Shown piece by piece: positions 1 through 62,903 of a DNA stretch of 64,000 nt. Numbering within the stretch: the stretch's first letter is position 1; each line of letters opens with the position of its first letter. The stretch lies in NCBI RefSeq assembly GCF_003334405.1, contig NZ_QOWM01000005.1; one strand, 5' to 3'. The translations under genes and the position numbers were made by a program. The DNA comes from Escherichia coli (GTDB lineage Bacteria > Pseudomonadota > Gammaproteobacteria > Enterobacterales > Enterobacteriaceae). The notes below the pieces were generated by a model. It was not told the origin of the DNA, searched no databases, and saw only the letters and a list, made by a program, of their open reading frames with translations.

Positions 1-278
1 TCTACGACTTCTTTATGAACTACGGCAAAACGCCGGAAGAAAAAGCGGTGCTGGAACGCCTGGGCTGGGCGCCATTCCGCGCTTCCAGCGACCTGCAACT
101 GGTGCCGATTCGCCAGCTCGCGCTGTTTAAAGAGATGCAGGGCGTGAAAAGCAATAAAGGACTGAATGAGCAGGACAAGCTGGCAAAAACCACCGAGATT
201 CAGGCGCAGCTGGATGACCTGGACCGCCTGAACAACGCGCTAAGCGCGATGAGTTCGGTGAGTAAAGCGGTGCAGTAA
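1..278 (+). CDS. phnD: Phosphonate ABC transporter periplasmic binding protein PhnD, C-terminal part (5' end lies outside window)
   Basis: Frame open from window edge to TAA at 276-278; translation ends ...LSAMSSVSKAVQ, recognised as PhnD C-terminus; followed by REP and phnE. Confidence 0.85.
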   Translation, partial: YDFFMNYGKTPEEKAVLERLGWAPFRASSDLQLVPIRQLALFKEMQGVKSNKGLNEQDKLAKTTEIQAQLDDLDRLNNALSAMSSVSKAVQ

Positions 279-280
279 AT

Positions 281-370
281 CGTAGGTCGGATAAGACGCC
301 CCGGCGTCGCATCCGACAATGTGCAGGCGTTGATGCCGGATGCGGTGCAAGCACCTTATCCGGCCTACAG
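281..370. repeat. REP/BIME element (two inverted REP units)
   Basis: Sequences cgtaggtcggataagacgc...gcgtcgcatccgaca and gccggatgcgg...ccttatccggcctac, the canonical E. coli REP palindromes, in intergenic phnD-phnE. Confidence 0.85.
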
Positions 371-383
371 ACCGGAGCCAAAC

Positions 384-1171
384 ATGCAAACCATCACCAT
401 CGCCCCACCCAAGCGCAGCTGGTTCTCGCTTCTGAGCTGGGCCGTTGTACTCGCCGTGTTGGTCGTCTCGTGGCAGGGCGCGGAAATGGCCCCGCTTACG
501 CTGATCAAAGACGGCGGCAACATGGCGACGTTCGCCGCCGACTTCTTCCCGCCCGATTTCAGCCAGTGGCAGGATTACCTCACCGAAATGGCCGTCACGC
601 TGCAAATCGCCGTCTGGGGCACCGCGCTGGCGGTGGTTCTCTCCATCCCCTTTGGCCTGATGAGCGCCGAAAACCTGGTGCCGTGGTGGGTTTACCAGCC
701 CGTTCGCCGCCTGATGGACGCCTGCCGCGCCATTAACGAAATGGTCTTCGCCATGCTGTTCGTGGTCGCCGTCGGCCTCGGCCCGTTCGCTGGCGTGCTG
801 GCGTGCTGGCGCTGTTTATCCACACCACCGGCGTGCTCTCCAAGCTGCTTTCCGAAGCGGTGGAAGCGATTGAACCCGGCCCGGTGGAAGGCATTCGCGC
901 CACCGGTGCCAACAAGCTCGAAGAGATCCTCTACGGCGTGCTGCCACAGGTGATGCCACTGCTGATCTCCTACTCCCTCTATCGCTTCGAATCCAACGTC
1001 CGCTCGGCGACCGTCGTCGGCATGGTCGGCGCAGGCGGGATCGGCGTCACCCTGTGGGAAGCGATTCGCGGTTTCCAGTTCCAACAAACCTGCGCCCTGA
1101 TGGTGCTTATCATCGTCACGGTCAGCCTGCTGGATTTCCTCTCTCAACGGTTGCGTAAGCACTTTATCTGA
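384..1171 (+). pseudogene. phnE: Phosphonate ABC transporter permease PhnE, disrupted by frameshift (8-bp tandem duplication at 789-812)
   Basis: ATG at 384 ([19 protein letters not shown]...) reads in one frame to ~805, continuation ([15 protein letters not shown]...QRLRKHFI) is in the frame of ORF 803..1171; three copies of GCTGGCG(T/C) at the junction. Confidence 0.85.
789..812. repeat. 8-bp tandem direct repeat gctggcgt/gctggcgt/gctggcgc causing the phnE frameshift
   Basis: Read directly: 789-796, 797-804 identical, 805-812 one mismatch; deleting one unit joins the two phnE reading frames. Confidence 0.9.
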
Positions 1172-1191: not shown

Positions 1192-1917
1192 ATGCACTTG
1201 TCTACACATCCGACCAGCTACCCAACACGCTATCAAGAGATAGCCGCAAAACTTGAGCAGGAGCTTCGTCAACACTACCGCTGCGGCGACTATCTTCCCG
1301 CCGAGCAGCAACTGGCAGCGCGCTTTGAGGTGAATCGCCACACCCTGCGCCGCGCCATCGACCAACTGGTGGAAAAAGGCTGGGTACAGCGCCGTCAGGG
1401 CGTCGGCGTGCTGGTGCTGATGCGCCCGTTCGATTACCCGCTCAACGCCCAGGCGCGTTTTAGCCAGAATCTGCTGGATCAGGGCAGCCATCCCACCAGC
1501 GAAAAACTGCTTTCGGTATTGCGCCCCGCGTCCGGCCACGTCGCTGACGCACTGGGGATTACCGAGGGGGAGAACGTCATCCACCTGCGCACCCTGCGTC
1601 GTGTCAACGGCGTCGCGCTCTGTTTAATCGACCACTACTTCGCGGACCTCACCCTCTGGCCGACGCTGCAACGCTTCGACAGCGGCTCGCTGCACGATTT
1701 TCTGCGCGAGCAAACCGGAATTGCGCTGCGCCGCAGCCAGACGCGGATCAGCGCCCGCCGCGCCCAGGCCAAAGAGTGCCAGCGTCTTGAAATCCCGAAT
1801 ATGTCGCCGCTGCTGTGCGTGCGCACCCTTAACCACCGTGACGGTGAAAGCAGCCCGGCGGAGTACTCCGTCAGCCTGACGCGCGCCGACATGATTGAAT
1901 TCACTATGGAGCACTGA
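1192..1917 (+). CDS. phnF: GntR-family transcriptional repressor of the phn operon
   Basis: ORF 1183..1917 trimmed to first ATG (MHLSTHPTSYPTRYQEIAAKLEQ...), 241 aa; GntR-type wHTH N-terminus. Confidence 0.92.
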   Translation: MHLSTHPTSYPTRYQEIAAKLEQELRQHYRCGDYLPAEQQLAARFEVNRHTLRRAIDQLVEKGWVQRRQGVGVLVLMRPFDYPLNAQARFSQNLLDQGSHPTSEKLLSVLRPASGHVADALGITEGENVIHLRTLRRVNGVALCLIDHYFADLTLWPTLQRFDSGSLHDFLREQTGIALRRSQTRISARRAQAKECQRLEIPNMSPLLCVRTLNHRDGESSPAEYSVSLTRADMIEFTMEH

Positions 1918-2370
1918 ATGCACGCAGATACCGCGACCCGCCAGCACTGGATGTCCGTGCTGGCGCACAGCCAACCGGCTGAACTGGCAGCACGCCTGAA
2001 CGCGCTAAACATCACCGCCGACTATGAGGTGATCCGCGCCGCTGAAACTGGCCTGGTACAGATTCAGGCGCGGATGGGCGGCACCGGCGAACGTTTTTTT
2101 GCCGGCGACGCCACGCTGACCCGCGCCGCCGTGCGCCTGACTGACGGCACGCTCGGCTACAGCTGGGTGCAGGGGCGTGATAAACAGCACGCCGAACGCT
2201 GCGCGCTGATTGACGCGCTGATGCAGCAATCTCGCCACTTTCAAAACTTATCAGAAACCCTTATTGCCCCGCTGGACGCTGACCGTATGGCACGCATTGC
2301 CGCACGCCAGGCCGAAGTGAACGCCAGCCGGGTCGACTTCTTTACGATGGTTCGCGGAGACAACGCATGA
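1918..2370 (+). CDS. phnG: C-P lyase core complex subunit PhnG
   Basis: 150-aa ORF, ATG immediately after phnF stop; recognised PhnG sequence. Confidence 0.93.
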
Positions 2371-2951
2371 CCCTGGAAACCGCTTTTATGCTTCCCGTGC
2401 AGGATGCCCAGCACAGTTTTCGTCGCCTGTTAAAGGCCATGAGCGAGCCGGGCGTGATTGTCGCCCTGCATCAGCTCAAACGCGGCTGGCAACCGCTGAA
2501 TATCGCCACCACCAGCGTGCTGCTGACGCTGGCCGATAACGACACGCCGGTGTGGCTTTCTACCCCATTAAATAACGATATCGTCAACCAGAGCCTGCGT
2601 TTTCATACCAACGCGCCGCTGGTCAGCCAGCCGGAACAGGCGACCTTCGCGGTGACGGATGAGGCGATTTCCAGCGAACAGCTCAACGCCCTTTCCACCG
2701 GCACCGCCGTTGCGCCGGAAGCGGGTGCGACGCTGATTTTACAGGTCGCCAGCCTGAGCGGCGGACGCATGTTGCGCCTTACTGGTGCGGGTATTGCCGA
2801 AGAACGAATGATCGCTCCGCAGCTGCCGGAGTGCATTCTGCACGAACTCACCGAGCGCCCGCATCCGTTCCCGCTCGGCATCGACCTGATCCTGACCTGT
2901 GGCGAGCGCCTGCTGGCTATTCCGCGAACCACTCATGTGGAGGTGTGCTGA
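2367..2951 (+). CDS. phnH: C-P lyase core complex subunit PhnH
   Basis: 194-aa ORF overlapping phnG stop by 4 bp (ATGA). Confidence 0.93.
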
Positions 2952-4015
2952 TGTACGTTGCCGTGAAAGGGGGCGAGAAGGCGATCGACGCCGCCCACGC
3001 CCTGCAAGAGAGCCGACGCCGAGGCGATACCGATTTGCCCGAACTGAGCGTCGCCCAGATTGAACAGCAGCTTAACCTCGCGGTAGATCGCGTGATGACC
3101 GAAGGCGGCATTGCCGACCGCGAACTGGCGGCGCTGGCGCTGAAACAGGCCAGCGGCGATAACGTTGAAGCGATTTTCCTGCTGCGCGCCTACCGCACCA
3201 CGTTGGCGAAGCTGGCGGTAAGCGAGCCGCTCGACACCACCGGGATGCGTCTCGAACGCCGTATCTCCGCCGTTTATAAAGACATTCCCGGCGGCCAGCT
3301 GCTTGGCCCAACCTACGACTACACCCATCGCCTGCTCGATTTTACCCTGCTGGCAAACGGCGAAGCGCCGACGCTGACCACCGCCGACAGCGAACAGCAG
3401 CCGTCGCCGCACGTTTTCAGCCTGCTGGCGCGTCAGGGGCTGGCGAAGTTTGAAGAGGATAGCGGCGCACAGCCGGATGACATCACCCGCACGCCGCCGG
3501 TTTACCCCTGCTCACGCTCCTCCCGTTTGCAGCAGTTGATGCGCGGCGACGAAGGCTATTTGCTGGCGCTGGCCTACTCCACCCAACGCGGTTACGGGCG
3601 CAATCACCCGTTCGCAGGCGAGATCCGCAGCGGCTATATCGACGTGTCGATTGTGCCGGAAGAGCTGGGATTTGCGGTGAACGTCGGCGAACTGCTGATG
3701 ACTGAGTGTGAAATGGTTAACGGTTTTATCGACCCGCCGGGTGAGCCGCCGCACTTCACGCGCGGCTACGGGCTGGTGTTCGGCATGAGCGAGCGCAAAG
3801 CGATGGCGATGGCGCTGGTCGACCGCGCTCTGCAAGCCCCGGAGTACGGCGAGCACGCGACAGGCCCGGCGCAGGATGAAGAGTTCGTGCTGGCACATGC
3901 CGACAACGTCGAAGCCGCAGGCTTTGTCTCACACCTCAAACTCCCCCACTACGTCGATTTCCAGGCCGAACTGGAGCTACTCAAACGTCTGCAACAGGAG
4001 CAGAACCATGGCTAA
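2951..4015 (+). CDS. phnI: C-P lyase core complex subunit PhnI
   Basis: ORF 2831..4015 trimmed to ATG at 2951 ([16 protein letters not shown]...), 354 aa; overlaps phnH stop (TGATG). Confidence 0.92.
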   Translation: MYVAVKGGEKAIDAAHALQESRRRGDTDLPELSVAQIEQQLNLAVDRVMTEGGIADRELAALALKQASGDNVEAIFLLRAYRTTLAKLAVSEPLDTTGMRLERRISAVYKDIPGGQLLGPTYDYTHRLLDFTLLANGEAPTLTTADSEQQPSPHVFSLLARQGLAKFEEDSGAQPDDITRTPPVYPCSRSSRLQQLMRGDEGYLLALAYSTQRGYGRNHPFAGEIRSGYIDVSIVPEELGFAVNVGELLMTECEMVNGFIDPPGEPPHFTRGYGLVFGMSERKAMAMALVDRALQAPEYGEHATGPAQDEEFVLAHADNVEAAGFVSHLKLPHYVDFQAELELLKRLQQEQNHG

Positions 4016-4853
4016 TCTGAGCGGCTACAACTTTGCCTACCTCGACGAGCAGACCAAACGCATGATCCGCCGCGCCATCTTAAAAGCGGTGGCGATCCCC
4101 GGTTATCAGGTGCCGTTTGGCGGGCGCGAGATGCCGATGCCGTACGGCTGGGGAACCGGCGGCATTCAGCTTACCGCCAGCGTGATTGGCGAAAGCGACG
4201 TGCTGAAGGTGATTGACCAGGGCGCGGATGACACCACCAACGCCGTGTCGATTCGCAACTTCTTCAAGCGCGTGACCGGGGTAAACACCACGGAACGTAC
4301 GGACGATGCGACGGTTATCCAGACGCGTCACCGCATCCCCGAAACGCCGCTGACCGAAGATCAGATAATTATCTTCCAGGTGCCAATCCCCGAGCCGCTG
4401 CGCTTTATCGAGCCGCGCGAAACGGAAACCCGCACCATGCACGCGCTGGAAGAGTACGGCGTGATGCAGGTGAAACTGTATGAAGATATCGCCCGCTTCG
4501 GTCATATCGCCACCACCTACGCCTATCCGGTGAAGGTAAATGGGCGCTACGTGATGGACCCGTCGCCGATCCCGAAATTCGATAACCCAAAAATGGACAT
4601 GATGCCCGCCCTGCAACTGTTCGGCGCGGGGCGCGAGAAGCGCATCTATGCGGTGCCGCCGTTTACCCGCGTGGAAAGTCTCGATTTCGACGATCACCCG
4701 TTCACCGTTCAGCAGTGGGATGAGCCATGCGCCATCTGCGGATCGACCCACAGCTATCTTGATGAAGTGGTGCTGGATGACGCCGGAAACCGCATGTTTG
4801 TCTGCTCCGATACCGATTATTGCCGCCAACAGAGCGAGGCAAAAAACCAATGA
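4008..4853 (+). CDS. phnJ: C-P lyase PhnJ (radical SAM-type C-P bond cleaving subunit)
   Basis: ORF 3876..4853 trimmed to ATG at 4008 (MANLSGYNFAYLDEQTK...), 281 aa; C-terminal CX2CX21CX5C cysteine cluster. Confidence 0.92.
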   Translation: MANLSGYNFAYLDEQTKRMIRRAILKAVAIPGYQVPFGGREMPMPYGWGTGGIQLTASVIGESDVLKVIDQGADDTTNAVSIRNFFKRVTGVNTTERTDDATVIQTRHRIPETPLTEDQIIIFQVPIPEPLRFIEPRETETRTMHALEEYGVMQVKLYEDIARFGHIATTYAYPVKVNGRYVMDPSPIPKFDNPKMDMMPALQLFGAGREKRIYAVPPFTRVESLDFDDHPFTVQQWDEPCAICGSTHSYLDEVVLDDAGNRMFVCSDTDYCRQQSEAKNQ

Positions 4854-5608
4854 ATCAACCGTTACTTTCGGTCAATAACCTGACCCACCTTTACGCGCCG
4901 GGCAAAGGCTTTAGCGATGTCTCTTTTGATTTATGGCCGGGGGAAGTGCTGGGCATTGTCGGGGAATCCGGCTCCGGGAAGACCACGCTGCTGAAGTCGA
5001 TCTCCGCGCGCCTGACGCCGCAGCAGGGGGAAATTCACTACGAGAACCGTTCGCTGTATGCAATGAGCGAGGCCGACCGCCGTCGCCTGCTGCGTACCGA
5101 ATGGGGCGTGGTGCATCAGCATCCACTCGACGGCCTGCGCCGCCAGGTGTCGGCGGGCGGCAATATCGGCGAGCGGCTGATGGCGACCGGGGCACGTCAT
5201 TACGGCGATATTCGTGCCACCGCGCAGAAGTGGCTGGAAGAGGTGGAGATTCCCGCCAACCGGATCGACGACCTGCCGACCACCTTTTCCGGCGGTATGC
5301 AGCAGCGTTTGCAGATTGCCCGCAACCTGGTGACGCATCCGAAGCTGGTGTTTATGGATGAACCGACCGGCGGGCTGGATGTGTCGGTGCAGGCCCGCCT
5401 GCTCGACCTGCTGCGCGGCCTGGTGGTGGAGCTGAACCTCGCGGTGGTGATTGTCACCCATGATTTAGGCGTCGCCCGCCTGCTGGCGGACCGTTTGCTG
5501 GTGATGAAGCAGGGGCAAGTGGTGGAGAGTGGGTTAACCGACCGCGTGCTCGACGACCCGCATCATCCGTATACACAGCTGCTGGTGTCATCGGTTTTGC
5601 AGAATTGA
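4850..5608 (+). CDS. phnK: ABC-type ATPase-like C-P lyase accessory protein PhnK
   Basis: ORF 4820..5608 trimmed to ATG 4850 ([15 protein letters not shown]...), 252 aa; Walker [10 protein letters not shown]. Confidence 0.92.
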
Positions 5609-5610
5609 GC

Positions 5611-5700
<90 letters not shown>

Positions 5701-5718
5701 CGAACCACGAGGCGAAAA

Positions 5719-6399
5719 ATGATTAACGTACAAAACGTCAGTAAAACCTTCATCCTGCACCAGCAAAACGGCGTGCGCCTGCCCGTCCTCAATCGCGCCT
5801 CGCTCACCGTCAACGCGGGCGAATGCGTGGTGCTCCACGGCCATTCCGGCAGCGGCAAATCAACTCTGCTACGCTCGCTGTACGCCAACTATCTGCCCGA
5901 CGAAGGTCAAATCCAGATCAAACACGGTGACGAGTGGGTAGACCTGGTCACCGCGCCAGCGCGCAAAGTGGTGGAAATCCGCAAAACCACCGTCGGCTGG
6001 GTGAGCCAGTTTCTGCGCGTCATCCCGCGTATCTCAGCACTGGAAGTGGTGATGCAGCCGCTGCTCGATACCGGCGTTCCGCGTGAAGCCTGCGCCGCTA
6101 AAGCCGCGCGTCTTCTCACCCGCCTGAACGTGCCGGAACGCCTGTGGCACCTGGCACCATCGACATTTTCCGGTGGCGAACAGCAGCGCGTCAACATCGC
6201 CCGCGGCTTTATCGTCGACTACCCCATTCTGCTGCTTGACGAACCTACCGCCTCGCTGGACGCCAAAAACAGCGCCGCGGTGGTGGAACTGATTCGCGAA
6301 GCCAAAACCCGTGGCGCAGCCATCGTAGGCATCTTCCATGACGAAGCTGTACGTAATGACGTCGCCGACCGCCTGCACCCAATGGGAGCCTCTTCATGA
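5719..6399 (+). CDS. phnL: ABC-type ATPase-like C-P lyase accessory protein PhnL
   Basis: ORF 5605..6399 trimmed to ATG 5719 ([15 protein letters not shown]...), 226 aa; Walker [10 protein letters not shown]; upstream part of ORF is REP sequence. Confidence 0.92.
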
Positions 6400-7532
6400 T
6401 TATCAATAACGTTAAGCTGGTGCTGGAAAACGAGGTGGTAAGCGGTTCGCTGGAGGTGCAGAACGGCGAAATCCGCGCCTTTGCCGAAAGCCAGAGCCGC
6501 CTGCCGGAGGCGATGGACGGCGAAGGCGGCTGGCTGCTGCCGGGGCTGATTGAGCTGCATACCGATAATCTGGATAAATTCTTCACCCCGCGCCCGAAAG
6601 TTGACTGGCCTGCCCACTCGGCGATGAGCAGCCACGACGCGCTGATGGTGGCGAGCGGCATCACCACCGTACTGGATGCCGTGGCAATTGGCGACGTGCG
6701 CGACGGCGGCGATCGGCTGGAGAATCTGGAGAAGATGATCAACGCCATCGAAGAGACGCAGAAACGCGGCGTCAACCGCGCCGAGCACCGTCTGCATCTG
6801 CGCTGCGAACTGCCGCATCACACCACGCTGCCGCTGTTTGAAAAACTGGTGCAGCGCGAGCCGGTGACGCTGGTGTCGCTGATGGACCACTCGCCGGGCC
6901 AGCGCCAGTTCGCCAACCGCGAGAAGTATCGCGAATATTATCAGGGCAAATACTCCCTCACTGATGCGCAGATGCAGCAGTACGAAGAAGAGCAACTGGC
7001 GCTCGCCGCACGCTGGTCGCAGCCGAATCGCGAATCCATCGCCGCCCTGTGCCGCGCGCGAAAAATTGCGCTTGCCAGCCACGATGACGCCACCCACGCC
7101 CACGTTGCTGAATCTCACCAGCTTGGCAGCGTGATCGCCGAATTTCCCACCACGTTCGAAGCGGCGGAAGCCTCGCGCAAGCATGGCATGAACGTGCTGA
7201 TGGGCGCGCCGAATATTGTGCGCGGCGGCTCGCACTCCGGCAACGTGGCGGCCAGTGAACTGGCGCAGCTTGGCCTGCTGGATATCCTCTCTTCCGACTA
7301 CTACCCCGCCAGCCTGCTCGATGCGGCATTTCGCGTCGCCGATGACCAGAGCAACCGCTTTACGCTGCCGCAGGCGGTGAAGCTGGTGACTAAAAATCCA
7401 GCGCAGGCGCTTAATCTCCAGGATCGCGGGGTGATTGGCGAGGGCAAACGCGCCGACCTGGTGCTGGCGCATCGCAAGGACAATCATATTCATATCGACC
7501 ACGTCTGGCGTCAGGGTAAAAGGGTGTTCTGA
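6396..7532 (+). CDS. phnM: Amidohydrolase-family PhnM (ribose 1-methylphosphonate 5-triphosphate diphosphatase)
   Basis: 378-aa ORF overlapping phnL stop by 4 bp. Confidence 0.93.
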
Positions 7533-8089
7533 TGATGGGAAAACTGATTTGGTTAATGGGGCCGTCCGGCTCCGGGAAAGACAGCCTGCTGGCGGAACTC
7601 CGCCTGCGGGAACAAACTCAGTTACTGGTGGCGCATCGCTACATCACGCGCGATGCCAGCGCCGGAAGTGAAAACCATATCGCCCTGAGCGAGCAGGAGT
7701 TTTTTACCCGCGCGGGGCAAAATCTGTTGGCCTTAAGCTGGCACGCTAACGGTCTGTATTATGGCGTCGGCGTCGAGATTGATCTCTGGCTGCACGCCGG
7801 ATTCGACGTGCTGGTCAACGGCTCACGCGCCCATCTGCCGCAGGCGCGGGCGCGCTATCAATCGGCGCTGCTGCCCGTCTGTTTACAGGTTTCGCCGGAG
7901 ATCCTCCGCCAGCGCCTGGAAAACCGTGGCCGTGAAAACGCCAGTGAAATTAACGCCCGCCTGGCGCGCGCCGCCCGCTATACTCCACAGGATTGCCATA
8001 CGCTCAACAATGACGGCAGCCTGCGCCAGTCGGTCGACACGCTGCTGACGCTGATCCATCAGAAGGAGAAACACCATGCCTGCTTGTGA
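7532..8089 (+). CDS. phnN: Ribose 1,5-bisphosphate phosphokinase PhnN
   Basis: 185-aa ORF, P-loop GPSGSGKDS; overlaps phnM stop. Confidence 0.93.
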
Positions 8090-8510
8090 GCTTCGCCCGG
8101 CCACGCAGTACGACACCGACGCGGTTTACGCGCTGATTTGTGAGCTAAAACAGGCGGAGTTTGACCACCACGCGTTTCGCGTGGGTTTTAACGCCAATCT
8201 GCGCGACCCAAACATGCGCTACCATCTGGCGCTGCTTGATGGCGAAGTTGTCGGCATGATCGGCCTGCATTTGCAGTTTCATCTGCATCATGTCAACTGG
8301 ATCGGCGAAATTCAGGAGTTGGTGGTAATGCCGCAGGCGCGCGGTCTGAACGTCGGCAGTAAGTTACTGGCGTGGGCAGAAGAAGAAGCCCGCCAGGCCG
8401 GGGCCGAAATGACCGAACTTTCGACCAACGTGAAGCGCCACGACGCGCACCGTTTCTATCTGCGCGAAGGCTACGAGCAGAGCCACTTCCGCTTCACCAA
8501 GGCGCTGTAA
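8076..8510 (+). CDS. phnO: GNAT aminoalkylphosphonate N-acetyltransferase PhnO
   Basis: 144-aa ORF overlapping phnN 3' end by 14 bp. Confidence 0.92.
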
Positions 8511-8511
8511 C

Positions 8512-9270
8512 ATGAGCCTGACCCTCACGCTCACCGGCACCGGCGGCGCACAGGGCGTTCCGGCATGGGGCTGCGAGTGTGCGGCCTGCGCCAGAGCGCG
8601 GCGCTCGCCGCAGTATCGCCGCCAACCGTGCAGCGGCGTAGTGAAGTTTAACGACGCAATCACCCTGATCGACGCCGGGCTGCACGATCTCGCCGATCGC
8701 TGGTCGCCCGGATCGTTCCAGCAGTTTTTGCTGACGCATTATCATATGGATCACGTCCAGGGGCTGTTTCCGCTGCGCTGGGGCGTTGGCGATCCGATCC
8801 CGGTTTACGGCCCGCCGGATGAACAGGGCTGCGACGATCTGTTTAAACATCCGGGCCTGCTTGATTTCAGCCACACGGTGGAACCGTTTGTGGTGTTTGA
8901 TTTGCAGGGGTTACAGGTCACGCCCCTGCCGCTCAACCACTCAAAACTGACCTTCGGTTATCTGCTGGAAACGGCACACAGCCGGGTGGCGTGGCTGTCT
9001 GACACCGCAGGCTTGCCGGAAAAAACGCTGAAATTTTTACGCAATAATCAGCCGCAGGTAATGGTGATGGATTGCAGTCACCCGCCGCGCGCGGATGCAC
9101 CGCGTAATCACTGTGATTTAAATACCGTGCTTGCGCTGAATCAGGTTATCCGCTCGCCACGGGTGATTCTGACCCATATCAGCCACCAGTTTGATGCGTG
9201 GCTGATGGAAAACGCACTACCGTCAGGGTTTGAGGTGGGGTTTGATGGGATGGAGATTGGGGTGGCGTGA
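8512..9270 (+). CDS. phnP: Metallo-beta-lactamase-fold phosphodiesterase PhnP
   Basis: 252-aa ORF, HYHMDH motif; last gene of phn operon. Confidence 0.93.
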
Positions 9271-9416: not shown

Positions 9417-9746
9417 TCATCGCCCATACTCATCTTCCATTCTCCGCTCTTCATCCTCCAGTTGCCGACGCTCCTGATCAAGCTGGCGCTGGCGATCGTC
9501 CAGCTGCCTGCGGCGATCTTCAAACTGGCGGCGGCGGTCGTCATATTGTCTGCGCCGATCGTCGCTCACTTCACGCTGCCAGCCGTCGTCGCGCGAATCT
9601 TCATAGTCTCGCCCACGGTCAGGGTTATAAGCGTCATTAATCGCCTGCTGAATATTGCCAATGGTGTCGTCGATAATATCGGCCTGGGCCGGAACGGTGG
9701 ACAGCGTGAGCAGGGTGAATAAAAGAAATAGCGGAAAGCGTTTCAT
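9417..9746 (-). CDS. yjdP: Small secreted low-complexity protein YjdP
   Basis: 109-aa ORF with N-terminal signal peptide and highly charged D/E/R/Q repeats (DDRRRQ..). Confidence 0.8.
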   Translation of the reverse strand: MKRFPLFLLFTLLTLSTVPAQADIIDDTIGNIQQAINDAYNPDRGRDYEDSRDDGWQREVSDDRRRQYDDRRRQFEDRRRQLDDRQRQLDQERRQLEDEERRMEDEYGR

Positions 9747-24247: not shown

Positions 24248-26395
24248 ATGAAAAAAGTCGTCACGGTTTGCCCCTATTGCGCATCAGGTTGCAAAATCAA
24301 CCTGGTCGTCGATAACGGCAAAATCGTCCGGGCGGAGGCAGCGCAGGGGAAAACCAACCAGGGTACCCTGTGTCTGAAGGGTTATTATGGCTGGGACTTC
24401 ATTAACGATACCCAGATCCTGACCCCGCGCCTGAAAACCCCCATGATCCGTCGCCAGCGTGGCGGCAAACTCGAACCTGTTTCCTGGGATGAGGCACTGA
24501 ATTACGTTGCCGAGCGCCTGAGCGCCATCAAAGAGAAGTACGGTCCGGATGCCATCCAGACGACCGGCTCCTCGCGTGGTACGGGTAACGAAACCAACTA
24601 TGTAATGCAAAAATTTGCGCGCGCCGTTATTGGTACCAATAACGTTGACTGCTGCGCTCGTGTCTGACACGGCCCATCGGTTGCAGGTCTGCACCAATCG
24701 GTCGGTAATGGCGCAATGAGCAATGCTATTAACGAAATTGATAATACCGATTTAGTGTTCGTTTTCGGGTACAACCCGGCGGATTCCCACCCAATCGTGG
24801 CGAATCACGTAATTAACGCTAAACGTAACGGGGCGAAAATTATCGTCTGCGATCCGCGCAAAATTGAAACCGCGCGCATTGCTGACATGCACATTGCACT
24901 GAAAAACGGCTCGAACATCGCGCTGTTGAATGCGATGGGCCATGTCATTATTGAAGAAAATCTGTACGACAAAGCGTTCGTCGCTTCACGTACAGAAGGC
25001 TTTGAAGAGTATCGTAAAATCGTTGAAGGCTACACGCCGGAGTCGGTTGAAGATATCACCGGCGTCAGCGCCAGTGAGATTCGTCAGGCGGCACGGATGT
25101 ATGCCCAGGCGAAAAGCGCCGCCATCCTGTGGGGCATGGGTGTAACCCAGTTCTACCAGGGCGTGGAAACCGTGCGTTCTCTGACCAGCCTCGCGATGCT
25201 GACCGGTAACCTCGGTAAGCCGCATGCGGGTGTTAACCCGGTTCGTGGTCAGAACAACGTTCAGGGTGCCTGCGATATGGGCGCGCTGCCGGATACGTAT
25301 CCGGGATACCAGTACGTGAAAGATCCGGCTAACCGCGAGAAATTCGCCAAAGCCTGGGGCGTGGAAAGCCTGCCAGCGCATACCGGCTATCGCATCAGCG
25401 AGCTGCCGCACCGCGCAGCGCATGGCGAAGTGCGTGCCGCGTACATTATGGGCGAAGATCCGCTACAAACTGACGCGGAGCTGTCGGCAGTACGTAAAGC
25501 CTTTGAAGATCTGGAACTGGTTATCGTTCAGGACATCTTTATGACCAAAACCGCGTCGGCGGCGGATGTTATTTTACCGTCAACGTCGTGGGGCGAGCAT
25601 GAAGGCGTGTTTACTGCGGCTGACCGTGGCTTCCAGCGTTTCTTCAAGGCGGTTGAACCGAAATGGGATCTGAAAACGGACTGGCAAATCATCAGTGAAA
25701 TCGCCACCCGTATGGGTTATCCGATGCACTACAACAACACCCAGGAGATCTGGGATGAGTTGCGTCATCTGTGCCCGGATTTCTACGGTGCGACTTACGA
25801 GAAAATGGGCGAACTGGGCTTCATTCAGTGGCCTTGCCGCGATACTTCAGATGCCGATCAGGGGACTTCTTATCTGTTTAAAGAGAAGTTTGATACCCCG
25901 AACGGTCTGGCGCAGTTCTTCACCTGCGACTGGGTAGCGCCAATCGACAAACTCACCGACGAGTACCCGATGGTACTGTCAACGGTGCGTGAAGTTGGTC
26001 ACTACTCTTGCCGTTCGATGACCGGTAACTGTGCGGCACTGGCGGCGCTGGCTGATGAACCTGGCTACGCACAAATCAATACCGAAGACGCCAAACGTCT
26101 GGGTATTGAAGATGAGGCATTGGTTTGGGTGCACTCGCGTAAAGGCAAAATTATCACCCGTGCGCAGGTCAGCGATCGTCCGAACAAAGGGGCGATTTAC
26201 ATGACCTACCAGTGGTGGATTGGTGCCTGTAACGAGCTGGTTACTGAAAACTTAAGCCCGATTACGAAAACGCCGGAGTACAAATACTGCGCCGTTCGCG
26301 TCGAGCCGATCGCCGATCAGCGCGCCGCCGAGCAGTACGTGATTGACGAGTACAACAAGTTGAAAACTCGCCTGCGCGAAGCGGCACTGGCGTAA
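24248..26395 (+). CDS. fdhF: Formate dehydrogenase H (selenocysteine/molybdopterin enzyme); in-frame UGA at 24665-24667 decoded as Sec
   Basis: ORFs 24248..24667 and 24716..26395 are in the same frame, separated only by TGA; combined 715 aa; N-terminal CPYCASGC Fe-S motif; SECIS hairpin follows the TGA. Confidence 0.93.
24665..24710 (+). other. SECIS element (selenocysteine insertion stem-loop) immediately 3' of the UGA
   Basis: tgacacggcccatcggttgcaggtctgcaccaatcggtcggtaatggc, stem-loop directly downstream of in-frame TGA. Confidence 0.8.
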
Positions 26396-27180: not shown

Positions 27181-27672
27181 TAGGCCTGATAAGACGCGGC
27201 AAGCGTCGCATCAGGCATTGATGTCGGATGCGGCGTAAACGCCTTATCCGACCTACAAAATCACGCTAAATCAGGCTATTGCGCTGTCTGGCGTAGGCCT
27301 GATAAGACGCGTTAAGCGTCGCATCAGGCGTTGATGTCGGATGCGGCATAAACGCCTTATCCGACCTACAAAATCACGCTAAATCAGGCTATTGCGCTGT
27401 CTGGCGTAGGCCTGATAAGACGCGGCAAGCGTCGCATCAGGCGTTGATGTCGGATGCGGCGTAAACGCCTTATCCGACCTACAAAATCACGCTAAATCAG
27501 GCTATTGCGCTGTCTGGCGTAGGCCTGATAAGACGCGTTAAGCGTCGCATCAGGCGTTGATGTCGGATGCGGCATAAACGCCTTATCCGACCTACAAAAT
27601 CACGCTAAATCAGGCTATTGCGCTGTCTGGCGTAGGCCTGATAAGACGCGGCAAGCGTCGCATCAGGCATTC
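27181..27672. repeat. Tandem REP/BIME array: about 4.3 copies of a 113-bp unit
   Basis: Unit starts (taggcctgataagacgcg) at 27181, 27294, 27407, 27520, 27633; each unit holds two inverted REP palindromes; copies differ at a few positions. Confidence 0.9.
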
Positions 27673-62195: not shown

Positions 62196-62903
62196 TTATT
62201 TCTCCGATTTAACCCCGAACAAATCATAAATTAATTTAGAAGTGTCTGTAAGTATTTTAATCTCTTCCTTTGAGGTTGGGTCAAACGACTTCGCGAAGCT
62301 AATTAATTGTGGTGCAGCATCTCGCATTTTGCTTAAAATATCAGGATCGAGCGTTCCTTCATTCACCAGATGTGACATCTTATCCAGATAGCCATCAAAA
62401 TTCATTTCTCCCCCATCAGCCAGACGCTTCATCTCTCCCAGGTACTTCTTCATATCACGTTGAGATAATTTTTCAAACTGAGCTTTCAGGTAGCTCTCAT
62501 TATTTTCATTAATATACACTGTTTCTGATAAATCTGCGTAGGCACTAGAATATGAAAGTGAAATTAACAGCGAAGCAAATAATTTTAAGCTGTTGTCATC
62601 ATGTTCCTGGCAGGCATTAACAAACGTTAAAAAACCAGAACCTATTGCTTGAAAATGTATATTCGCTAAAGGTTCATTATCCTTAGATTCCTCATAAAAT
62701 AGCTGAACCGTGGAGGGAAGGTCATTCTTAGTTTCTACATCAAAAGTACATTGTTCAATGGGCATTGCATCTTTATTATCCCCAGGATTACATATACTAT
62801 TAATCGCGAAATGAAAAATAGCCCGGTCAACAACTGATGCAATAAAGTCACGATCGTTTAAATCCTCATCAGTGCAATCGTCAATATACTTATTGACCCA
62901 CAT
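62196..62903 (-). CDS. yjbM: Uncharacterised protein YjbM
   Basis: ORF 62196..62936 trimmed to ATG 62903 (MWVNKYIDDCTDEDLNDRDF...), 235 aa; AT-rich codon usage; no recognisable domain by eye. Confidence 0.8.
   Translation of the reverse strand: MWVNKYIDDCTDEDLNDRDFIASVVDRAIFHFAINSICNPGDNKDAMPIEQCTFDVETKNDLPSTVQLFYEESKDNEPLANIHFQAIGSGFLTFVNACQEHDDNSLKLFASLLISLSYSSAYADLSETVYINENNESYLKAQFEKLSQRDMKKYLGEMKRLADGGEMNFDGYLDKMSHLVNEGTLDPDILSKMRDAAPQLISFAKSFDPTSKEEIKILTDTSKLIYDLFGVKSEK

What the first reader, a model, noticed from the sequence alone, without database searches (positions are those of the whole stretch)
384..1171. phnE inactivated by an 8-bp tandem duplication (slippage-prone cryptic switch)
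At 789-812 the octamer GCTGGCGT occurs twice, followed by GCTGGCGC. The permease ORF changes frame exactly here (...PFAGVLA|CWRCLSTPP... versus the continuing frame [13 protein letters not shown]...). Removing one 8-bp unit gives a single continuous ORF of about 259 codons. Such short tandem repeats gain or lose units by slipped-strand mispairing, so the phosphonate uptake permease is reversibly switched off.
Basis: partly seen in the sequence, partly recalled or inferred. Interest (0 to 1): 0.5.

Follow-up and report, generated by a model that had tools for sequence, protein, structure and literature searches.

The report
Known cryptic phnE octamer-repeat frameshift

Summary
GCTGGCGT, GCTGGCGT, GCTGGCGC lie at 789-812. 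The phnE frame changes there, and removing any one unit gives a 259-codon ORF (384-1171). That ORF passes the NCBIfam PhnE model; the two halves do not.

Papers read here attribute the 8-bp insertion and its spontaneous loss to Makino 1991. They cite Iqbal 2004 for "reversible phase variation in phnE" and report new 8-bp-deletion revertants. RefSeq flags the gene as "frameshifted".

What this check adds:
- The window is not K-12 MG1655. It matches natural isolates exactly.
- About 1,000 of 5,395 complete E. coli genomes carry three units. Roughly two thirds of a 30-genome sample of these are non-laboratory isolates.
- Twelve genomes carry four units, one carries seven, and none with five was found.
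- Only five genomes combine the window's haplotype with two units.

So slippage has occurred in both directions in nature, but each state is mostly inherited stably.

Verdict: real, correctly read, already known, low interest.

The parts
384..1171 (+). phnE, the phosphonate ABC transporter permease gene, present as a frameshifted pseudogene of 788 nt. The intact allele is 780 nt.
   Evidence: ORFs and translations. RefSeq annotates the identical stretch of FORC_081 as phnE, pseudogene, 'frameshifted', at locus 384-1171. The same flag is on K-12 MG1655. The repaired product passes TIGR01097 and matches Pfam BPD_transp_1 over residues 88-258.
789..812 (+). Tandem octamer array: GCTGGCGT, GCTGGCGT, GCTGGCGC. 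This is the site of the frameshift and of unit gain and loss. Intact alleles have two units, which encode AGVLA of ...PFAGVLALF... .
   Evidence: Sequence and TRF. It is unique in the window and absent from 100 shuffles. The alignment of 2-, 3-, 4- and 7-unit alleles places all length differences here.
384..953 (+). Truncated reading frame as it stands: 141 native PhnE residues plus 48 out-of-frame residues, stopping at TGA 951-953.
   Evidence: Translation. It matches only profile positions 8-133 of 252 in TIGR01097, at 127.7 bits, below the 216.7 cut-off.
803..1171 (+). The second frame, which carries the C-terminal half of PhnE. It includes the EAVEAIEPG...LP cytoplasmic loop and the last hydrophobic segment.
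   Evidence: ORF 803-1171. It matches TIGR01097 positions 131-251, at 176.5 bits, below the cut-off.
1..278 (+). 3' end of phnD, the periplasmic phosphonate-binding protein, upstream in the same operon.
   Evidence: Annotation of the identical FORC_081 stretch.
1192..9270 (+). phnF (regulator) and phnGHIJKLMNOP (C-P lyase pathway). All are intact and lie downstream of the broken permease gene.
   Evidence: Annotation of the identical FORC_081 stretch. None of these genes is flagged as a pseudogene.

Best explanation
This is the cryptic allele of phnE, the membrane subunit of the PhnCDE phosphonate/phosphate ABC importer.

Functional alleles carry two tandem copies of an 8-bp unit inside a hydrophobic segment (codons 136-141). 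This allele carries three. The extra 8 bp shifts the frame. Translation then yields a 189-residue product that lacks the C-terminal half of the permease, including the cytoplasmic loop that ABC permeases use to dock the ATPase. The importer is therefore inactive, although phnC, phnD and phnF-P are intact.

Because the units are tandem and identical, replication slippage can remove a unit, restoring the 259-codon gene, or add one. Only unit numbers 2, 5 and 8 are in frame.

Shown here: the anatomy, the frame arithmetic, the family membership of the repaired product, and copy-number polymorphism among genomes.

Taken from papers: the Phn-minus phenotype, selection of 8-bp-deletion revertants, and the claim of reversibility.

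Inferred: that the truncated product is non-functional because it lacks the coupling loop, and that slippage during replication is the molecular route.
For: - Sequence and frames.
- Repaired ORF 311.5 bits against TIGR01097 (cut-off 216.7); halves 127.7 and 176.5 bits, abutting at profile positions 133/131.
- BPD_transp_1 domain, E = 5.6e-26.
- Operon context phnD-phnE-phnF...phnP.
- RefSeq 'frameshifted' pseudogene flags on 3-, 4- and 7-unit alleles, and intact CDS on 2-unit alleles.
- The alignment shows that alleles differ only by whole octamers at this site.
- Counts: about 1,000 genomes with 3 units, 12 with 4, 1 with 7.
- Two natural isolates (ETEC1732, Z217-2) differ from the window over 7.17 kb by 2-3 SNPs plus exactly this 8-bp gap.
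- Literature: PMC6469041, PMC4759930, PMC3463581, PMC7566553.
Against: Nothing contradicts the lesion or its effect. The doubt concerns the word 'switch'.

- In 5,395 genomes the two states are almost perfectly partitioned by haplotype. About 999 three-unit alleles are at least 99% identical to the window. Only 5 two-unit alleles share that haplotype.
- At most 8 three-unit alleles occur in more distant backgrounds.
- At the scale of a genome collection, flips are therefore rare. This fits a mutational hot spot in a drifting pseudogene as well as it fits an evolved contingency locus.
- I could not read Makino 1991, Iqbal 2004 or Guillemet 2012 themselves. Reversibility (2 to 3 units) and switching frequency rest on how others cite them, and on my memory of the Iqbal abstract.
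Confidence: 0.93

Rival explanations
1. It is a plain pseudogene, not a switch. One slippage event created the three-unit allele in an ancestor of a phylogroup-A-like lineage. The allele is now simply inherited and drifts (3 to 4 units, occasional 3 to 2). It has no adaptive role as an on/off device.
For: - Three-unit alleles are almost confined to one haplotype: 999 records at least 99% identical over the gene, and at most 8 in backgrounds with 2-5 SNPs per 104 nt.
- Only 5 genomes carry that haplotype with two units.
- Further expansion to the equally dead four-unit state (12 genomes) is more common than contraction.
- The array is very short (2-3 units) compared with classical contingency loci. 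This comparison is from my own knowledge.
Against: Papers report that revertants arise readily under phosphonate selection or phosphate starvation and sweep populations (PMC6469041; PMC4759930). Iqbal 2004 is titled 'Reversible phase variation'. Assemblies record only the majority allele of a culture, so minority states are invisible. This rival differs from the best explanation only on evolutionary meaning, not on mechanism.
Confidence: 0.3
2. It is a sequencing or assembly artefact: a miscounted short repeat in this window.
For: Short tandem repeats are sometimes miscounted by assemblers. This is general knowledge; no tool result here supports it.
Against: The identical three-unit sequence occurs in about 1,000 independently assembled complete genomes. 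These include the K-12 MG1655 reference. Turner 2020 confirmed three copies by re-sequencing BW25113 (PMC7566553).
Confidence: 0.01
3. The gene is expressed despite the frameshift. This could happen by programmed ribosomal frameshifting at the repeat, or as two separately translated half-permeases (384-953 and GTG 803-1171) that assemble.
For: The second frame opens with a GTG at 803 inside the array and runs to the native stop. The two fragments together cover the whole PhnE profile.
Against: Papers describe K-12 with this allele as unable to take up phosphonates until the 8 bp are lost (PMC6469041; PMC3463581). The frameshift is absent from about four fifths of E. coli genomes with phnE, which is the opposite of a conserved recoding site. 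No slippery-site or stimulator analysis was done.
Confidence: 0.02

Closest known systems
Cryptic phn(EcoK) allele of E. coli K-12 phnE (Makino et al. 1991; Iqbal et al. 2004; gene b4583 'phnE1' in the MG1655 reference)
   Same: The 788-nt gene is identical to MG1655 except for one synonymous base (874 A instead of G). It has the same three octamers, the same frameshift and the same operon. The unit reported lost in revertants (5'-GCTGGCGT at ORF position 407-414, PMC6469041) maps to this array: ORF 407-414 is window 790-797, the same deletion written one base to the right.
   Different: The window is not MG1655. Its first 20 kb are 100% identical to natural isolates from chicken, opossum and human and to NCTC9041. 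The allele is therefore not peculiar to the laboratory strain.
Functional phn(EcoB)-type phnE (for example BL21, WP_001193500.1)
   Same: Same gene, position and length apart from the repeat. The in-silico repaired window ORF is 100% identical to annotated intact phnE genes whose product is WP_001193500.1 (ETEC1732, Z217-2).
   Different: It has two octamers instead of three. BL21 also carries synonymous differences flanking the array (GGTCTCGGA... and ...CTATTT).
Slipped-strand-mispairing contingency (phase-variable) genes with intragenic repeats, for example tetranucleotide or pentanucleotide tracts in Haemophilus and Neisseria surface genes (from my own knowledge)
   Same: A tandem repeat whose unit length is not a multiple of three lies inside a coding region. 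The unit number sets the reading frame and varies among strains.
   Different: The array is only 2-3 units long, with a long (8-bp) unit. The gene is a nutrient importer, not a surface antigen. Among sequenced genomes the state follows lineage closely rather than varying freely.

Membership tests
PhnE phosphonate ABC transporter permease (NCBIfam TIGR01097, equivalog) | Full-length match above the curated cut-off of 216.7 bits | tested here: met
   The repaired 259-aa product scores 311.5 bits over profile positions 8-251 of 252. As it stands, the gene does not meet the cut-off in either frame (127.7 and 176.5 bits), which is what makes it a pseudogene.
PhnE phosphonate ABC transporter permease (NCBIfam TIGR01097, equivalog) | Binding-protein-dependent transporter inner-membrane domain | tested here: met
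   Pfam BPD_transp_1 PF00528, E = 5.6e-26, residues 88-258 of the repaired product.
PhnE phosphonate ABC transporter permease (NCBIfam TIGR01097, equivalog) | Position in a phnCDE transporter cluster next to the C-P lyase genes | tested here: met
   The order is phnD - phnE - phnF - phnG...phnP in the window. phnC lies upstream in K-12 and ETEC1732.
Slipped-strand-mispairing phase-variable (contingency) locus | Perfect tandem repeat inside the coding region, with a unit length that is not a multiple of 3 | tested here: met
   8-bp unit, 2.9 copies, 100% matches at 789-811, inside codons 136-143.
Slipped-strand-mispairing phase-variable (contingency) locus | Unit number varies among strains, and the reading frame (on/off) follows it | tested here: met
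   2 units are annotated intact. 3, 4 and 7 units are annotated 'frameshifted'. Frame arithmetic.
Slipped-strand-mispairing phase-variable (contingency) locus | Changes in both directions within one lineage | tested here: inconclusive
   Within the window's haplotype there are 2-unit (5 genomes), 3-unit (about 999) and 4-unit (12) alleles. No rooted tree was made, so the direction of each change is inferred, not shown. The title of Iqbal 2004 asserts reversibility, but the paper is not held.
Slipped-strand-mispairing phase-variable (contingency) locus | High switching frequency, well above the ordinary mutation rate | not testable with these tools
   This needs fluctuation tests or deep amplicon sequencing. 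PMC4759930 says the deletion 'occurs with a high frequency'. The genome survey shows that the two states are largely lineage-bound.
Programmed ribosomal frameshift site | The frameshift is conserved among homologues | tested here: not met
   About four fifths of E. coli genomes with phnE have a single uninterrupted frame at this site.

The most novel reading that the evidence does not exclude
The three-unit OFF allele is not a laboratory curiosity of K-12. It is a stably inherited natural haplotype, carried by roughly one in eight non-laboratory complete genomes, and revertants to ON within it are very rare (four natural genomes). If that rarity reflects selection for keeping the importer off in this lineage, or a switching rate far lower in nature than reported in culture, the accepted picture of phnE as a fast reversible phase-variation switch would need revising. 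One possible reason for such selection is avoiding uptake of toxic phosphonates.
Probability: 0.25. Interest if true: 0.3.

Novelty: already known. Interest (0 to 1): 0.12.

Why it matters
The lesion explains why strains with this allele cannot grow on phosphonates, or import phosphate through PhnCDE, until they lose 8 bp. That matters for interpreting phosphate-starvation, glyphosate, phosphonate and fosfomycin experiments. All of this is already in the literature and in genome annotation.

The only modest addition here is the population picture. The OFF allele is common in natural isolates of one lineage. Alleles with four and seven units exist. Both states are inherited stably at the scale of a genome collection.

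Tried and rejected
- I tried to read the primary papers: Makino 1991 (PMC207835), Iqbal 2004 (PMC515159) and Guillemet & Moreau 2012 (PMC3256660). None is held, so I relied on four open papers that cite them.
- I searched for a five-unit allele, which would be in frame with an 8-residue insertion. None was found in the window's flanking haplotype.
- My 48-nt query was meant to hit only alleles with three or more units. It also seeded on two-unit alleles through a 28-nt exact match, so I used only its count of matches covering at least 80% of the query.
- Assembly artefact: rejected, because about 1,000 independent assemblies agree.
- Recoding or a split gene: rejected on the reported Phn-minus phenotype and the lack of conservation of the shift.
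- Not attempted: a unit-number count for the roughly 450 genomes whose repeat region was too divergent for the short megablast queries (4,943 of 5,395 matched), a one-unit search, and a phylogeny.

Full report
**Observation.** The window carries GCTGGCGT at 789-796, GCTGGCGT at 797-804 and GCTGGCGC at 805-812. Tandem Repeats Finder reports period 8, 2.9 copies and 100% matches at 789-811. The frame opened by ATG 384 reads ...GPFAGVLA then CWRCLSTPP... and ends at TGA 951-953. A second frame reads (M)[13 protein letters not shown]... from 803 to the stop at 1169-1171. Deleting any one unit gives 780 nt and one 259-codon ORF. Unit numbers 2, 5 and 8 are in frame; 1, 3, 4, 6 and 7 are not. This is the only perfect tandem array of period 4-12 with about three copies in the 64 kb, and none arose in 100 dinucleotide-preserving shuffles.

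**What the gene is.** The repaired product scores 311.5 bits against NCBIfam TIGR01097, 'phosphonate ABC transporter, permease protein PhnE' (cut-off 216.7). The N-terminal fragment scores 127.7 bits over profile positions 8-133. The C-terminal fragment scores 176.5 bits over positions 131-251. Both are below the cut-off and they abut at the repeat. Pfam finds BPD_transp_1 over residues 88-258. The neighbours are the end of phnD, then phnF and phnGHIJKLMNOP, all intact. The repeat lies in a hydrophobic segment (residues 113-153), just before the EAVEAIEPG...LP stretch. From general knowledge of ABC permeases, I take that stretch to be the cytoplasmic loop that contacts the ATPase. The frameshifted product lacks this loop and everything after it.

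**Comparison with other genomes.**
- The gene is found in 5,395 of 5,426 complete E. coli genomes.
- Intact, annotated phnE genes have two units: BL21, ATCC 11775, O157:H7 PA20, ST2747 and a pig isolate.
- The three-unit records whose annotation was opened are marked as pseudogenes. PGAP flags 'frameshifted' on one MG1655 assembly, FORC_081 and a chicken isolate. The MG1655 reference lists the gene as pseudogene b4583.

**Literature.** This is the classical cryptic phn allele.
- Stasi et al. 2019 (PMC6469041) state that K-12 does not express PhnE because of an 8-bp insertion. They say revertants arise 'by spontaneous slippage'. They sequenced a revertant that had lost 5'-GCTGGCGT at ORF position 407-414. 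[quoted passage not shown]
- Moreau & Loiseau 2016 (PMC4759930) found the 8-bp deletion in five evolved strains. They attribute it to slippage between direct repeats, occurring at high frequency.
- Hove-Jensen et al. 2012 (PMC3463581) describe the '8-bp duplication' and its loss in Phn+ derivatives.
- Turner et al. [quoted passage not shown]
- The three primary papers are not held in the library.

**What this check adds.**
- The window is not MG1655. It differs by a synonymous base at 874. Its first 20 kb are 100% identical to isolates from chicken, opossum and human and to NCTC9041.
- About 1,000 genomes carry three units. The counts are 999 records at least 99% identical over the whole gene, which excludes an 8-bp gap. 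A 104-nt three-unit query gives 1,009 records at 95% or more, and a 48-nt query gives 1,000 at 80% coverage or more.
- Two evenly spaced samples give 30 distinct three-unit genomes. Of these, 19 come from humans, animals, food, water or sediment, 9 are laboratory strains and 2 are unclear. Roughly two thirds of the carriers are therefore natural isolates, about one in eight non-laboratory genomes.
- Twelve genomes have four units, including VR50.
- One bovine isolate has seven units, in a BL21-like flanking haplotype. That expansion is therefore independent of the K-12-like lineage.
- No five-unit allele was found.
- Some divergent backgrounds have imperfect pairs: GCTGGTGT-GCTGGCGC in O157:H7 and GCTGGCGT-ACTGGCGC in ST2747. 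These should slip less readily, which is an inference.

**How often it flips in nature.** I queried with the repaired window gene. Only five genomes are 99.9-100% identical: ETEC1732 and ETEC1734, Z217-2 and Z217-4, and one MG1655 derivative. The next two-unit alleles are 99.2% identical. Over 7.17 kb, ETEC1732 and Z217-2 differ from the window by 2 and 3 SNPs plus exactly the 8-bp gap. The nearest other two-unit genome differs by 122 SNPs.

Within the window's haplotype the counts are therefore about 999 with three units, 12 with four and 5 with two. In more distant backgrounds there are at most 8 three-unit alleles among about 3,900 genomes. Changes at the array have clearly happened more than once, but each state is mostly inherited. 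This fits a slippage hot spot. By itself it does not show a fast switch. Assemblies record only the majority allele of a culture, so this comparison cannot measure switching rates.

**Rivals.**
- A pure drifting-pseudogene reading (confidence 0.3) differs only on evolutionary meaning, not on mechanism.
- An assembly artefact is excluded by about 1,000 concordant assemblies and by published re-sequencing.
- Recoding or a split permease is contradicted by the reported Phn-minus phenotype and by the absence of the shift from most genomes.

**Verdict.** The feature is already known: described in 1991, called phase variation in 2004, and flagged in RefSeq. Interest is low.

Noticed in passing
window 285-365 (-), and 321-383: The phnD-phnE spacer holds a REP-type palindromic element, matched by Rfam naRNA4 at 69.1 bits. 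The MG1655 reference annotation (b4583 'phnE1', 839 nt) starts phnE 51 nt upstream, at window 333, inside this element. PGAP starts it at 384.
   Followed up: partly
window 27181-27668: A tandem array of a 113-bp unit, 4.3 copies at 96% identity, lies in and around the yjcO-gltP spacer. It is made of REP/BIME-like elements, with five naRNA4 matches. The window has 226 bp more, equal to two 113-bp units, than the otherwise near-identical genome FORC_081.
   Followed up: partly
L005 (E. coli OkiPb01679), phnE; corresponds to window 698-790: A different natural phnE knockout. An 83-bp deletion lies between two 10-bp direct repeats, GCCCGTTCGC (window 698-707 and 781-790). The second repeat overlaps the first two bases of the octamer array. 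The gene is 697 nt and is flagged 'frameshifted'.
   Followed up: partly
L004 (E. coli OkiPb01713), locus 491-546: phnE has seven octamer units, in a BL21-like flanking haplotype, and is flagged 'frameshifted'. Twelve other genomes, including VR50 (L003), have four units.
   Followed up: yes
window 62196-63181 (-): The yjbM-like (246 aa) and yjbL-like (84 aa) ORFs overlap in different frames. PGAP annotates the matching stretch of FORC_081 as one 'frameshifted' DUF2713 gene. A 30-bp tandem repeat (2.4 copies) lies at 63053-63123, inside the upstream part.
   Followed up: no
window 24660-24714 (+) and 45436-45576 (+): Expected known RNA elements: the SECIS element inside fdhF (87.1 bits) and the sRNA sraL near soxR (153.3 bits).
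   Followed up: no
window 9491-9563: A 21-bp tandem repeat (3.5 copies, 75% matches) lies inside yjdP, which is annotated as a 'DDRRRQL repeat protein'.
   Followed up: no
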